A stretch of 64,000 nt of DNA from Chrysomallon squamiferum. Taxonomy: Eukaryota > Animalia > Mollusca. Shown piece by piece: positions 7,134-18,936 of this stretch. The DNA lies in NCBI GenBank assembly GCA_012295275.1, contig CM022670.1, positions 2,356,001 through 2,420,000 on the forward strand, given 5' to 3'. The notes under the pieces were generated by a model. That model saw only the letters and a list, made by a program, of their open reading frames with translations, did no database searches and had not been told where the DNA came from. The translations under genes were made by a program, and so were the position numbers. The stretch's first letter is position 1, and the number at the start of each line of letters is the position of its first letter.

Positions 7134-8975
7134 ATGCTTTCGAAAGTCGTCCCTGTTAGCAGATCTTTGGCTTTAGTTAGCCGTAAGTTACATGTTTTGA
7201 TACTTTTATTAGTTTCTGTGATATTTATTGTAATTAAACCGGACAACTTTAAAAAATTAAGAGTTACGACTAACGTTGTAATTTGTCAAGCTGCGATTAT
7301 TTTGTTGTCGTGCACATTACAATGTCGGATACAGTTTATTGTAATTAGTTTAAAAGCAAAAATAATTTTTCTGAATAATTATACATATATTTTATGAAGA
7401 ACATATATATTTTTTGTTATCCATTGGAATGTGAAGTTTAAATGTTTGTAATTGTTCAAGTAAATTGTTCAAGTAAAATGTTCAAACTGACCTTTGACTT
7501 TGAGGCTTTGTTACTATTGGTGTCATATTGATATTAATATTATTATGAGATGTTCATTCAAGGAAAAGTAATTTAATCATATAAAATATTTTATATAAGA
7601 CAAAATCATTTAAATAATGGATCTCTGAAATTTCGCACTGTGTGACAATTACGTTTCCTAAGTTTCCAAAGGTCATGGTATGTCAGTATGATGTAATTTA
7701 CCCATACTATTAAGTATTGTAGTAATATACTAATACGATTTATAGTCATACGATTTATTAATTTTAAGCTATTGCTTTGTCTAAAATTATAAAATAAATG
7801 TTTTTAGAATTTGAAAACATCTTTTTTATTTTTGTTACATATTAGTGACATAACCAGCTTGTTATTTCAGTTTAATTTAAGATAAACATTTGACAGATTT
7901 TGTTATTTTTACAACTAAAATTATTTAAATATGCTTTACTTCCTCAAAAGTATCAAATAATTTTATAAGCTAACTTATACCTAATCTGAATTTTGATTTC
8001 ATGTGTATATAACATTTATTTATTAAATCCTTTTTAAAAATAATTGAAGATATATATAAATTTCACTGGCACATAATAATAAATTTGAACAATCTGAATG
8101 CATTCCAAGAGAATTCTGAAAAAAGAACATACTTTTCTCAAGTATTTTTTATTATTTGCTGTTTAACTTTCTAGGTTAAAAACAGGTATAATGTTGTAAA
8201 AACATATTACTTTAAAACAAGTCATTAGATGATTTTAATCTTTTTAAAAATGTGTGTTTCTCTTAGGTTTCCAACCAGCACGATGCATGAGTGCACACGC
8301 CCCAGCACACTGGAAATCTGATCGTGAGATTGCAGCAGAACATCAATGTACCATGGACTACATGCCTATTCCATCTGGATCTTGGCAAGAGCAGTATGAT
8401 AAGACCAATGCCAAGTACAATGTGTATCTGGCTCTGGCCTCAATGGTTTTTATAGGCACAGTTTTTGCTGTAAGTTATGTTTTGAATGGTAACATTTATT
8501 TAAACCTCATCTGAAATTTTAGTTTTTCTGTTTTTCTTTTTCATAATTAGTTTTGTTTCGATTACATTTTAAAATGTTGTATCTTTAGTAAATGTATTTA
8601 CCAAAAATTGGAATGATTACTGTTTTGGATGATAATAAATCTCTTAATATTTTTCATTGAAATTGATACATTTTAGAAATCTAGTTTCAACTGAATTTTT
8701 AAAACAAATTTAAGTTTTCTTAGGCGAAGTTGAGTTACAAATAAGTTTCAGATTTAGTTTTTATGCTGTCATGAAATAAAATGGATTACTGTTAAAGTTT
8801 TTTTTCAGGAGTTGTTATAATGTTAGATTTATCAATTAAACTAAAAACATTTATCAAATAAAACTATAATCATTGTGGATATTGTATATTTTTGTTGTTC
8901 ATACAGGTCAAGAAAACCAATGCCATGTACCTGCACTCACGTCCTAACTTGAAGAATTACCAGCCCCCACAGTAA
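7134..8975 (+). CDS. Stand-alone COX7B-like protein (prag01/Deltameth_res family, Drosophila CG7630-like), 106 aa, 3 exons
   Basis: Exons 7134-7182, 8267-8469 and 8907-8975 (GT-AG, 321 nt) give [106 protein letters not shown]. It has a basic presequence, a TMDxxPxPxGxW...NAKYN motif and one TM helix, resembling CG7630 (recalled STMNDLPVPAGDW...KNAKYN), which is reported as the fly COX7B homologue. AATAAA at 9466-9471. Confidence 0.88.
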
Positions 8976-11109
8976 AATGTACCTCGGATTGAAAGACATT
9001 ACGGCATGTTCAGAAGTGAATGCAGAGTGACAATGAAGAATTAGACAAAACAATTGATTGTAATTAAGTGATATTTAAGTTGACATTATTTTGGGGTTTT
9101 AATCTCAATAACCAGCAAACAAACAAAAACTGTGTTTTTAATTCTTCACTTTTTTTTTTTTTTTTTTTAATGTAGTGTGTATACATTGTGGCGATAACCT
9201 TGAATAAAAAAAGAGAAAAGTTTTCAGTTTTTTTCTCTTTAGTTGACAGCAATATCTCAGTAGATCTGGTAAACTATTTTTTATTTTTAAAATCAGATAG
9301 GGTCATCGAATTTAAAAAAAAAATTACTTAAGTATAATCAGATGATATTCTTGACTTGAGAAAAAAAAAGAGAAGCCTTTTTTATCGTTAATAGTGCATT
9401 ATATTTGCTTATGCACACTTGGTTTAGATGAGATTTGTGGACATTTTTAAAACTAGTAATGTCAGAATAAATGTATACATTAAATGAAATTTTATCTGCA
9501 TTTTGTTACATTCTAATCTGGTAATTAACATCTTTATATTTATCTTGTCAGAATGTTTATTTAAAAACTTAATAAACTAGGTTTGAACTTTCTGATCAGT
9601 CTTAATTACTTTGAAAATAAAAATGTGCCTGTGTGCCAAATAATACTGACCACTACAATTACTGACATAGATGGTTAAATTACTTGACATTTAATTCAAT
9701 CTTAGGTAACTAAACCAGTTGTTTCTTGTAAATTTGAAGAAACTTCTGTTAGTCACAGTTTGCTAGTACTAGCAGTTCCTGACAGCAAGAAGTGGCAAAT
9801 AATTTCCTTAAAGATTTGAAATATGGTTTACAAGAAAATCTAATGCCATTGTCTCCTGGATTAATAGATTTGTCATTGGTAGTTGGACTAATAATTACTA
9901 TTCGGCTTGTGCAAACAATAACAAACAGATAATTTATATACAAAATAATTTATTTTCTACAGTACAGTCAATTAGAAAAACAGGATTGTTCAGAGTGTGA
10001 CATTATTTGCTAATCACAACAAATTAAACTACTGATTTCTCTTACAAAATTCTATAATCTGTTTCAAACATAATATCCAGATAAATAGCTTGCTAGACTC
10101 TGGACACAAACATAGCTCTATCTGTTTAATTACAATAATTTTTTGGTAAAATTTGAACTTGACTTTATATCCTTTTTCCAAAACTTCTTCCATGATTTAG
10201 CATATCTTATGTTAAAAGATTTATGTAATGTGTTTAGTGATTATAAAAAGAATAATAAAAAAAACCCACCATATTTGTCAAAACTTCTGAGGATTTACCA
10301 AATTAACAAGTACTATGATGTAGCTACTAATGACATTAAAGTTAGTGTAACAATATTATAAGCAGTTTCTATGTTCAACAGGATACATTTAATCATTGGT
10401 CTTTGAATAAAAAATGAAATAAAAAAGGTTTGTTTAGAATGATTATACAAGATCAAAAATGATAATTATTCTAGTAAGATCAATTTTCCCAAAGTACACA
10501 ATATTTTGACCTGCAAAATCATTTAACATTAATTATTTTTGTTGCAATTTTTATCACAGAAATACTTTTAGAGTTTTAGAAAAGTAATGCTGTTAAATTC
10601 TGGACCCATCCTTCCTCTCTGAAAAATATTCAGATAACTGAAACCAATTTCTTACCAGAACCATATGATTTTTCTAATGTCACAATCTTAATTTTATTCA
10701 AAGTAAAATATTACTGAACTGAAAAAAAATGGATAAAAGACATTAAAATAAATATGAAGAAATGGTTTTGTTTATGATTGCAACTTCATATAGAAAACAA
10801 AGAGGTAACTCTTATTATTAAAAACTGACACCTTATAAACCCACGATTAATACATAAATAACTGCTTAAAAACTTTCATCTGAACTTACTTTTTTGTAGG
10901 TCCCTGCTATGGATTAAAATAAATTAATAATCCAACTGACTTTCCTTCTATATAATATATATCAAAAATTTATAGAAATAATCTTAGTGCATTTAATGTA
11001 TCAAAATTGTGTAAAATTTGTCAAAATATTCCAGTCGAGTAAATTCTTTGCGTGAGAATGTTTTTAAGAATTACACATTATAAAAAGATGCCTATTAAGT
11101 CCTTTGTTA

Positions 11110-17100: not shown

Positions 17101-18936
17101 TACAGTTTTTTTTTTTTTTAAAAAGAAGAAAAAGAAAGAAACCAACAACCACTTAAAAAATTAATTATAAATAATGAAAAGTTAAATATGTACCATTTAC
17201 ATAATGATTGATGCCTTATTATTATAAAGCAAAAAAATGTCCATTTGCTAGCATATTTAATACAAAATATTTTTTGTTTACATGTAACTGATTTAAAAAA
17301 AATATATATATTGTCGGATATTTATAGGAACATCATTCAATAGATAGAAGGAAAAACACAGAAGTGTCTATGACAAAATATTTTAATTCTAATATTTTTA
17401 CCTTCTTCCTCTTGCAATGGTAAAACATTTGGTTGTTTTTTCTTCAGATTAGGTCTGGAATGCAAATACATTGCATTCGTTTTTAAAACCTGTAAGTGTG
17501 TAGAAAAAGCAAATTATTTTCCTGTATTGAAAAATGAATAAAAAAATTATTAAAAACAACTGACATATAATATACACTAAAAATGTATATACATTAATAA
17601 ATAATTTATAATACATAATCAATAAAAAATAAATAATAATAAATTGAAATAAAATACTACTACTACTAATAATAATAATCATAATATAAAAATAAATAAA
17701 TAATAATTTTTTTAAAATGCTTCTATGAACACAAAATTCACATAAAATATTTCAGAGACTAACAAAGTATATAGTGAATCCAAAAAATGCTGTGGCTGCT
17801 GCTAAGTAAACATTGTATTTTTTGTTTCTGTCATTGTAAGCCTCCTGCCAGGAACCGTCAGGTACTGGGTAGTAATCCATGGTGGCTTGATGTTCCTGTG
17901 CAATTTCTCTGTCTGACTTCCAGTGAGTTGGGACATCATGGCTCATACACCGTGAAGCTGGACTACTTGGTAGAACTATTAACAAGAACAAAAAAATACT
18001 AAAGGGTATTTATATAAAAAAAAACATAAAAAAAAAAACATACCTGATTTATGATATAAAATTCTTTAAAAAATGACTCTAAGTTAAACTTCAATGAAAT
18101 AAAAAAATAAGAGCAGAAGTTAAATATAATTTAACCTAGCTTAATTAGCAAATAAAGTAGAATTATAAAATTTTAATTTTTTTTTCCAAAAGCTTTATTA
18201 ATCTATTGTGATCATCTTGATGTTATTTTGTTATTTATCTAACACTCTTTGTAATGGAACAGTTACGAGGTTTGGCCAGGATAATCTTTTTGTGTAATAT
18301 ACTTATACTTATAAAGTTATAGATTAGGGAATGTACGTTTATTATTTGTTTATATAAAATATACTAGTCTGCATTATATATGAACTGAAAGGAATACATT
18401 TTTTGCATTAAATACTTTAATTATATTTCTTATTTTTATCTGTGTTGTGTGTTTTAGTGTAAGTAGCAGGTTGCATCATTCATCAGATACAGAGTAGCAT
18501 GAATGATGAAGAAGTGTAAGTCTTGTTCAGTTGTTGCCAAAGACCGAATGATGTTTTGCTAATTGTTCTTGCGTCAGTCTAAATAATTTATAACGTGGGT
18601 TAGTTATTCAATTTTTTTTTAGATATTTCCAAATAATAATTTAAAAAATAAATAAAATAGCTGATAGTGTTGAAATAGTCTTCTAATTTAATAAGTATTA
18701 CATGTCAAACAACAGGTACACATGTGTCAAGGGAAATAACTCAACGGAAACTGACCTTCAACTAAAAATTGCAACATGTGTTTCTTACATAAATATTTAC
18801 ATGACATGCAATTTGACTTGGAGGAAATCACTCAGGAAATGTACTACTTACAATTTTTTTGAATAAGTTTACGTCCGACTAATGTACTGCCATAACGTGC
18901 ACAAAAAAACCGGCTTGATACCACGACCCGGTACAT
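11110..18936 (-). CDS. AIFM1: Mitochondrial apoptosis-inducing factor 1 with an N-terminal COX7B-like module, 17 exons, ~629 aa if one missing base in exon 13 is restored
   Basis: Exons 18852-18936, 17764-17975, 17402-17489, 16872-17014, 16294-16424, 15972-16062, 15522-15606, 15196-15272, 14786-14894, 14401-14445, 14064-14126, 13669-13757, 13299-13438, 12604-12746, 12068-12221, 11529-11681, 11110-11190. AIF hallmarks: [11 protein letters not shown] (FAD), [38 protein letters not shown] (NADH), [74 protein letters not shown]. Exon 1 ([28 protein letters not shown]) looks like a presequence and is the least certain exon. Confidence 0.93.
17402..17975 (-). other. COX7B-like (prag01) module encoded by AIFM1 exons 2-3
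   Basis: Translation [92 protein letters not shown] aligns without gaps to the 7134-8975 product (55/79 identical by manual count). The phase-0 intron sits at the same position. Confidence 0.92.

What the first reader, a model, noticed from the sequence alone, without database searches (positions are those of the whole stretch)
7134..17975. Stand-alone and AIF-fused COX7B-like paralogues kept side by side under apparent purifying selection
Seen: the two copies are inverted, about 8.4 kb apart, with convergent transcription. They align gap-free at 55/79 aa and share intron phases (1 then 0), yet synonymous sites are heavily changed (TGG AAA TCT GAT CGT GAG vs TGG AAG TCA GAC AGA GAA for WKSDRE) and the introns show no obvious similarity. 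Conservation is highest in the matrix segment ([16 protein letters not shown]) and the IMS tail ([14 protein letters not shown], 14/14), and lowest in the TM helix. Inference: this is an old local duplication in which the fused copy still conserves protein-interaction surfaces rather than a generic anchor. The cell could therefore assemble two complex IV populations, with and without AIF. The direction of origin (exon capture by AIF, or partial duplication of a fused ancestor) cannot be determined here.
Basis: partly seen in the sequence, partly recalled or inferred. Interest (0 to 1): 0.75.

Follow-up and report, generated by a model that had tools for sequence, protein, structure and literature searches.

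The report
COX7B as AIF's detached membrane anchor
A probable snail keeps two expressed, facing genes that share one small respiratory-chain module, once alone (a COX7B-like subunit) and once as the membrane anchor of apoptosis-inducing factor (AIF); the fusion is already published, but weak traces of the same module in sea-anemone and sea-urchin AIF suggest COX7B likely began as AIF's own anchor.

Summary
Observation confirmed. A 106-aa stand-alone gene (+, 7134-8975) faces a 625-aa AIF gene (-, 18936-11110) whose exons 2-3 encode the same PF16020/COX7B-like module: 55/79 identical, synonymous sites saturated (pS 0.86, pN 0.24). Public RNA contigs show both genes spliced; the junction itself was not read.

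The fusion is published (PMC9346487), and 39 of 120 listed AIF hits carry it. The pair is not peculiar to this genome: stand-alone copies occur in Gigantopelta, Solemya, Littorina, Nucella, Argonauta, Arion and Lamellibrachia, often apparently linked to AIF. Leaders sort by gene type, while the mature module does not (AU p=0.002 against one stand-alone clade). That fits an old pair that is re-homogenised or re-duplicated.

The new lead: the module sits where AIF's own anchor sits. Cnidarian and echinoderm AIF anchors weakly match PF16020 or COX7B (5 of 7; 0 of 17 controls); cnidarian ones keep the COX4-contact motif. Vertebrate and hemichordate anchors do not match. COX7B may therefore have split off from AIF. 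Docking of either copy in complex IV is inferred, not shown. No earlier scan finding matched.

The parts
7134..7182 (+). Stand-alone COX7B-like gene, exon 1 (predicted mitochondrial leader, phase-1 intron)
   Evidence: joint 7182-8267 GT..AG in 2 of 3 RNA runs; leader resembles other stand-alone leaders
8267..8469 (+). Stand-alone exon 2: matrix segment and transmembrane helix (PF16020, 50.2 bits, cut-off 27)
8907..8975 (+). Stand-alone exon 3: intermembrane-space tail and stop; RNA contigs run on to about 9140
   Evidence: joint 8469-8907 GT..AG
18852..18936 (-). Fused AIF gene, exon 1 (predicted mitochondrial leader, phase-1 intron)
   Evidence: leader resembles AIF leaders; inclusion inferred from RNA contig lengths
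17764..17975 (-). Fused exon 2: COX7B-like matrix segment and TM helix (PF16020, 48.7 bits)
17402..17489 (-). Fused exon 3: tail identical (14/14) to the stand-alone tail, then linker; phase-1 intron to AIF exon 4
11110..17002 (-). AIF oxidoreductase and C-terminal domains, exons 4-17; exon 13 (13299-13438) is one base short in the assembly
   Evidence: the last six coding exons are joined in RNA contigs of 3 of 3 RNA runs
9609..11109 (-). AIF 3' untranslated region, reaching to within about 250-470 bases of RNA pieces at the stand-alone 3' end
   Evidence: one contig spans 9609-11186
6824..6919 (-). First exon of the VPS36-like neighbour, head-to-head with the stand-alone gene (start codons 215 bp apart; a shared promoter is inferred)
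   Evidence: (EAP30/Vps36 on a downstream exon, E 7.9e-05, below the curated cut-off)

Best explanation
The locus holds two spliced, expressed genes sharing one COX7B-like module; the stand-alone product likely fills the COX7B site of most complex IV, while the fused copy likely fills the same site in a minority and so tethers AIF to the enzyme. Shown: gene structures, selection, splicing, family match and kept contact residues. Inferred: both leaders are cleaved before the Arg-Cys-Met motif, the helix crosses the inner membrane beside COX4, and the tail (plus the AIF domains, 47 residues further on) lies in the intermembrane space. Inferred history: the module is AIF's own exon-2/3 anchor; a short copy of AIF exons 1-3 became the free subunit long ago; in lophotrochozoans the two stay linked and exons 2-3 are now and then made alike again, by conversion or re-duplication, while each gene keeps its own leader exon.
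For: Both copies exceed the PF16020 cut-off. A 59-sequence profile ranks mammalian COX7B in 4 of the top 5 of 177,635 PDB sequences (E 0.17-0.84). The fly homologue CG7630 is a proven complex IV subunit rescued by human COX7B (PMC9346487, passages). The N-x2-L-x2-small COX4-contact pattern is kept in both copies. pN/pS is 0.28 with saturated synonymous sites. Both genes are spliced; AIF contigs extend 1197, 1150 and 1147 bases 5' of exon 12, against 1117 coding bases in the model with the module and 817 without it. 13 named protostome AIFs carry the module. Window leaders score higher against their own gene type (p=2e-4 and 2e-3), yet one stand-alone clade is rejected (AU p=0.0018). Tails match within pairs 14/14 (window), 12/14 (Solemya) and 13/14 (two unnamed sister rows), against at most 9/14 in 205 other pairs. 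Bovine AIFM1 dimers bind about 10% of monomeric complex IV (PMC8488679).
Against: No protein-level evidence exists for either copy. The module-to-AIF junction was not read directly. pN/pS is pairwise and cannot assign selection to one branch. Tails do not match in Littorina or Nucella (3/14 each). Trees rest on 81 columns; in the smaller tree, a root placing the three stand-alones outside all lophotrochozoan fused copies was not rejected (AU p=0.126). Leader scores use short, related, hand-picked sequences, so the p-values are optimistic. Linkage elsewhere is inferred from accession order or contig length only, and Nucella's two genes lie on scaffolds of different length. Position +6 is Ala here where human and fly have Gly (9 of 59 relatives have Ala).
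Confidence: 0.62

Rival explanations
1. The stand-alone gene is a young partial duplicate of the fused gene, made once in the ancestor of this species and Gigantopelta; other lineages made their own copies independently (repeated fission, no conversion).
For: Window, Gigantopelta and ENA stand-alones form a clade (100/95) sister to the window's fused copy (99/96); the four rows group at 98/88 among 69 rows. Stand-alone monophyly is rejected. Synonymous saturation leaves no direct trace of conversion.
Against: A young duplicate should inherit AIF's leader exon. The window's stand-alone leader instead resembles stand-alone leaders of distant species; cleavage motifs lie at 21-23 residues in stand-alones and 35-65 in fused copies. 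The Solemya stand-alone joins the same group (91/91).
Confidence: 0.25
2. The fused module works only as AIF's import signal and membrane anchor and never enters complex IV; only the stand-alone copy is a subunit.
For: The module occupies the place of AIF's ordinary anchor. Mayfly, vertebrate and hemichordate AIFs work without the matrix segment, and the Lamellibrachia AIF model lacks the module. In bovine heart, COX7B is not depleted where AIFM1 co-migrates with complex IV (slice 34/30 ratio 0.084, against 0.057-0.102 for four other subunits; hand-computed), so mammalian AIF binds without taking that site.
Against: A plain anchor would not need the matrix segment at 16/18 and the tail at 14/14 under saturated synonymous sites, nor keep the whole module across molluscs, annelids, priapulids, nematodes and crustaceans.
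Confidence: 0.17
3. An independent COX7B gene arose first at the bilaterian root, and AIF captured a copy of its exons in protostomes (the published reading; the first reader's 'exon capture').
For: PMC9346487 found no COX7B homologue in cnidarians or sponges and calls the proteins fused. The full PF16020 is annotated only in protostome AIFs. Vertebrate and hemichordate anchors show no signal. Echinoderm and cnidarian anchor profiles do not retrieve COX7B from the PDB.
Against: Cnidarian and echinoderm AIF anchors already match the helix-plus-tail half. There is no second anchor behind the module. Human AIFM1 also encodes its anchor across exons 2-3, with exon-2 loss out of frame and exon-2+3 loss giving a protein, which fits the window's phases 1, 0, 1 (PMC11842818 passages).
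Confidence: 0.3

Closest known systems
COX7B-like (CG7630/prag01, PF16020)-AIF fusion proteins of barnacle, Octopus and Daphnia (Brischigliaro et al. 2022, PMC9346487; sections 9 and 10 and passages read)
   Same: Same architecture: leader, PF16020 module, AIF domains in the intermembrane space; the same proposed role of tying AIF to complex IV.
   Different: In the passages read, the paper does not describe a stand-alone paralogue beside the fusion ('paralog' 0 hits), treats the protein as a fusion, and dates COX7B to the bilaterian root. Here the pair is adjacent, recurs in other lophotrochozoans, and cnidarian and echinoderm AIF anchors carry a trace of the module.
Drosophila CG7630 (COX7BL) and mammalian COX7B (PF05392)
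   Same: Single-helix subunit with a leader; profile match to human and other mammalian COX7B; COX4-contact pattern; human COX7B also has its first intron in phase 1 and an exon 3 (c.41-2A>G, c.196delC; PMC7918533 passages).
   Different: Ala instead of Gly at the helix-contact position; longer matrix segment; complex IV membership untested in molluscs.
Mammalian COX-AIFM1(2) complex (Hevler et al. 2021, PMC8488679; abstract, section 6, passages and supplement rows read)
   Same: A minority of complex IV carries AIF on its intermembrane side, with the AIF anchor crossing the membrane.
   Different: Non-covalent; modelled at COX2/NDUFA4/COX6B1/COX6C; COX7B is still present. The vertebrate AIF anchor shows no detectable likeness to the module.

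Membership tests
PF16020 / protostome COX7B-like (CG7630) | Score above the Pfam curated cut-off | tested here: met
   50.2 and 48.7 bits against 27
PF16020 / protostome COX7B-like (CG7630) | Leader, matrix segment, one long helix, short tail | tested here: met
   Model of the Gigantopelta orthologue: helix 56-88, mean pLDDT 77; hydrophobic segment in the window copies
COX7B | Profile homology to mammalian COX7B | tested here: met
   4 of the top 5 PDB hits, E 0.17-0.84; weak, but of the same order as the published HHpred E 0.24-3; shallower profiles missed it
COX7B | COX4-contact residues Asn, Leu(+3), Gly(+6) | tested here: met
   Asn and Leu kept in both copies; Ala at +6, a small residue found in 9 of 59 relatives
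COX7B | Fold match to COX7B chains | tested here: inconclusive
   A single helix does not discriminate
COX7B | Stable subunit of complex IV, needed for its assembly | not testable with these tools
   Shown for the fly and human proteins only (PMC9346487)
AIFM1 | AIF_C domain and FAD/NADH oxidoreductase core | tested here: met
   PF14721 on three exons; 82-83% identity to Gigantopelta AIF
AIFM1 | Anchor encoded across exons 2-3; intron phases such that exon-2 loss shifts the frame and exon-2+3 loss does not | tested here: met
   Window phases 1, 0, 1; human pattern from PMC11842818 passages
COX7B-like-AIF fusion | One transcript joining module and AIF exons | tested here: inconclusive
   In-frame GT..AG model; contig lengths fit in 3 of 3 RNA runs; the junction was not read directly

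The most novel reading that the evidence does not exclude
COX7B is not an independent bilaterian invention later fused to AIF: it is the detached N-terminal inner-membrane anchor of AIF. AIF docked on complex IV through this helix before cnidarians and bilaterians split; a partial copy of AIF exons 1-3 became the free subunit; protostomes kept both forms, linked and periodically homogenised, competing for one site on complex IV; vertebrate AIF let the anchor drift but still binds the enzyme.
Probability: 0.45. Interest if true: 0.8.

Novelty: new variant of a known kind. Interest (0 to 1): 0.56.

Why it matters
If true, it gives a concrete origin for one of the youngest accessory subunits of complex IV, and an evolutionary reason for the unexplained AIF-complex IV partnership seen in mammalian heart. 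It also offers natural test systems: molluscs in which AIF would be covalently part of a complex IV subunit and the AIF-bearing share would be set by two neighbouring genes. As a bare observation (a fusion and a paralogue) it is mostly known or expected.

Tried and rejected
No whole genome is held for the window, so other copies in this genome and synteny in relatives could not be read. A word-index search with fused exon 2 among longer proteins found none of 13 candidates; the same fusions then appeared through an AIF exon. The metagenome scan gave 3 loci matching 22 residues at E 1e-4; these were set aside as chance. PDB sequence searches with shallow profiles and with echinoderm or cnidarian anchor profiles did not retrieve COX7B. 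Fold searches were uninformative: 0 Foldseek hits, best VIA Z 4.4 on unrelated helices. The Atlas gave PF16020 clusters at 0.89-0.92 and COX7B clusters at 0.86, leads only. Contig depth was far higher on the stand-alone than on AIF in two runs (260 vs 11; 158 vs 10), but contig depth cannot rank genes, and run X2 showed no stand-alone contig; neither point is used. The idea that mammalian AIF displaces COX7B was checked on the untreated bovine profile and not supported; the cross-linked profile is too noisy for COX7B. A species-specific duplication or recent whole-module conversion was rejected (AU p=0.018; 9 of 13 tail codons differ). The rejection of a gastropod fused clade (p=0.0025) was not controlled for poor recovery of gastropods by so short a domain and is not relied on. 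A bacterial promoter scan is irrelevant here. Complex prediction was not run, since no mollusc COX4 or COX6C sequence was on hand. In one search two tails were mis-anchored; one search is the corrected count. Ten literature searches found only PMC9346487 for the fusion and nothing on a side-by-side pair or on an AIF-anchor origin of COX7B; subscription journals are not covered, and the supplements of PMC9346487 were not examined. Scan look-ups returned nothing relevant.
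Full report
What is there. The window (27% GC, no N) is eukaryotic. Its AIF is 82-83% identical to that of Gigantopelta aegis, and 64-80% to six other molluscs, so it is probably a neomphaline gastropod. 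A three-exon gene on the + strand (7134-7182, 8267-8469, 8907-8975) gives 106 aa. A 17-exon gene on the - strand (18936-11110, 16 of 16 introns GT..AG) gives 625 aa. Exon 2 of each matches Pfam PF16020 (50.2 and 48.7 bits, cut-off 27), and the later exons of the long gene match AIF_C. The module aligns gap-free at 55/79, with a 14/14 tail and intron phases 1 and 0 in both genes. Synonymous sites are saturated (pS 0.857, pN 0.237, pN/pS 0.28, bootstrap 0.17-0.42), and the introns show no similarity beyond noise.

Expression and assembly. Five public runs hold the AIF region; four were laid on 6500-13800. The stand-alone is spliced at both predicted introns in 2 of 3 RNA runs. The last six AIF coding exons are joined in 3 of 3. 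These contigs carry one more base in exon 13 than the window, so the apparent frameshift is most likely an assembly error. The AIF contigs run 1197, 1150 and 1147 bases beyond exon 12, against 1117 coding bases with the module and 817 without; this fits inclusion of the module, but the junction was not read. A 5.6-kb contig from a second study spans 8193-13800, so the two genes are neighbours in independent data.

What is known. PMC9346487 (sections 9 and 10 and passages read) shows that PF16020 proteins are the protostome COX7B, reports AIF fusions in barnacle, Octopus and Daphnia, and links them to the bovine COX-AIFM1 complex of PMC8488679 (abstract, section 6, passages, supplement rows). 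My AIF search listed the best 120 of 1586 hits; 39 carry PF16020, and the 13 named ones are gastropods, a chiton, octopuses, an annelid, a priapulid, a nematode and Daphnia. A 59-sequence profile ranks mammalian COX7B in 4 of the top 5 PDB sequences. Both window copies keep Asn and Leu of the modelled COX4 contact, with Ala for Gly. So the fusion is not new, and the COX7B label is sound.

Is the pair special? No. An exhaustive profile search gave 436 hits; the best 150, many of them short, were listed. Of 10 looked up, 6 were named: stand-alones in Solemya, Arion, Lamellibrachia, Littorina, Argonauta and Nucella; Gigantopelta came. The Gigantopelta and Solemya AIF models start inside the module's tail and look 5'-truncated; the Lamellibrachia model lacks the module.

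History. In a 22-row tree the three closest stand-alones (100/95) are sister to the window's fused copy (99/96). A window-only pair is rejected (AU p=0.018), so the split predates Gigantopelta; placing them outside all lophotrochozoan fused copies is not rejected (p=0.126). With named stand-alones added (23 hand-picked rows, 81 columns), one stand-alone clade is rejected (p=0.0018). In a 69-row tree, whose bootstrap had not settled, caenogastropod stand-alones group with caenogastropod fusions (99/94) and cephalopod with cephalopod (96/84). The leaders behave the other way: the window's stand-alone leader scores higher against 23 other stand-alone leaders than against 18 AIF leaders (p=2e-4), and the fused leader the reverse (p=2e-3) (related rows, so optimistic). 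Tails are nearly identical within 3 of 5 pairs (14, 12 and 13 of 14; the last pair is two unnamed sister rows not known to be one species) and unlike in 2 of 5 (3 of 14), while 205 other pairs reach at most 9. The simplest reading is an old linked pair whose exons 2-3 are now and then homogenised; repeated re-duplication remains possible.

Direction of origin. The module is not added in front of a complete AIF; it stands where AIF's anchor stands, 45-80 residues before the FAD motif in most fusions and 47-71 in unfused AIFs. In whole-protein Pfam scans, 2 of 19 AIFs without the annotated domain gave weak hits on the anchor: Nematostella to PF16020 (E 0.19) and Strongylocentrotus to COX7B (E 0.23). 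Anchors scanned alone, chosen after seeing this, hit COX7B or PF16020 in 3 of 4 echinoderms (best E 0.017) and 2 of 3 cnidarians (best E 0.003) among 24,736 families; 0 of 17 unrelated hydrophobic segments did, though 8 of them had chance hits to other families at E 0.02-0.4. Against local shuffles, cnidarian anchors were reached by 0, 2 and 0 of 200, sea cucumbers by 0, sea urchins by 5-6 and mayflies by 0; vertebrates (6-95) and hemichordates (25, 103) were mostly not distinguishable. Profile-profile scores were 28.5 (echinoderm), 22.9 (cnidarian) and 25.8 (mayfly), each 0 of 30 shuffles, against 12.8 (vertebrate), 16.0 (hemichordate) and at most 18.6 for 8 transporter controls and all reversals. 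All three cnidarian anchors have Asn, Leu or Val at +3 and Gly at +6. Human AIFM1 encodes its anchor across exons 2-3 with a frame pattern that fits phases 1, 0, 1 (PMC11842818 passages), and human COX7B has a phase-1 first intron (PMC7918533 passages). Against this: every match is weak and lies on a membrane helix; the anchor profiles did not retrieve COX7B from the PDB; and bovine COX7B is not depleted where AIFM1 co-migrates (ratio 0.084 against 0.057-0.102, hand-computed).

Mechanism and verdict. Most likely both products are imported, cleaved and inserted beside COX4; the free one serves most complex IV and the fused one tethers AIF to a share of it (inferred, 0.62). The valuable lead is that COX7B may be AIF's detached anchor (0.45). 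Novelty: new variant of a known kind. Interest 0.56.

Noticed in passing
window 23882-31491 and 40664-43953, - strand: Two tandem bicarbonate/borate transporter genes (HCO3_cotransp, PF00955); two compared segments are 35/47 and 34/44 identical. An old tandem duplication directly upstream of AIF.
   Followed up: partly
window 6919 (-) and 7134 (+): The VPS36-like gene and the stand-alone gene are head-to-head, with start codons 215 bp apart; they probably share a promoter.
   Followed up: partly
window 13299-13438: AIF exon 13 is one base short in the assembly; RNA contigs restore the frame, and they differ between runs at this place (two alleles or populations).
   Followed up: yes
window 14401-14445 and 14064-14126: Two small exons (45 + 63 bases) add up to 108; from recall, not from a call, the human AIFM1 exon here is a single 108-base exon and the flanking exon sizes match, which would mean one extra intron in this lineage.
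   Followed up: no
window 11842-11891: A short element of about 45 bases in an AIF intron matches very many contigs of run X5 (summed depth in the thousands), probably part of a dispersed repeat.
   Followed up: no
window 9140-9609: The 3' ends of the two convergent transcripts come within a few hundred bases of each other; AIF has a 3' UTR of about 1.5 kb with several polyadenylation-like signals.
   Followed up: no
P0134 and P0279 (Solemya velum): Two almost identical stand-alone copies on one chromosome, besides the AIF-linked module.
   Followed up: no
P0003 (Holothuria) and P0005/P0006 (Octopus): The Holothuria AIF model is 1120 aa and scored far higher than any other hit, which suggests a doubled match; Octopus AIF has a Pro/Glu/Ala-rich linker of about 260 residues between module and FAD domain.
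   Followed up: no
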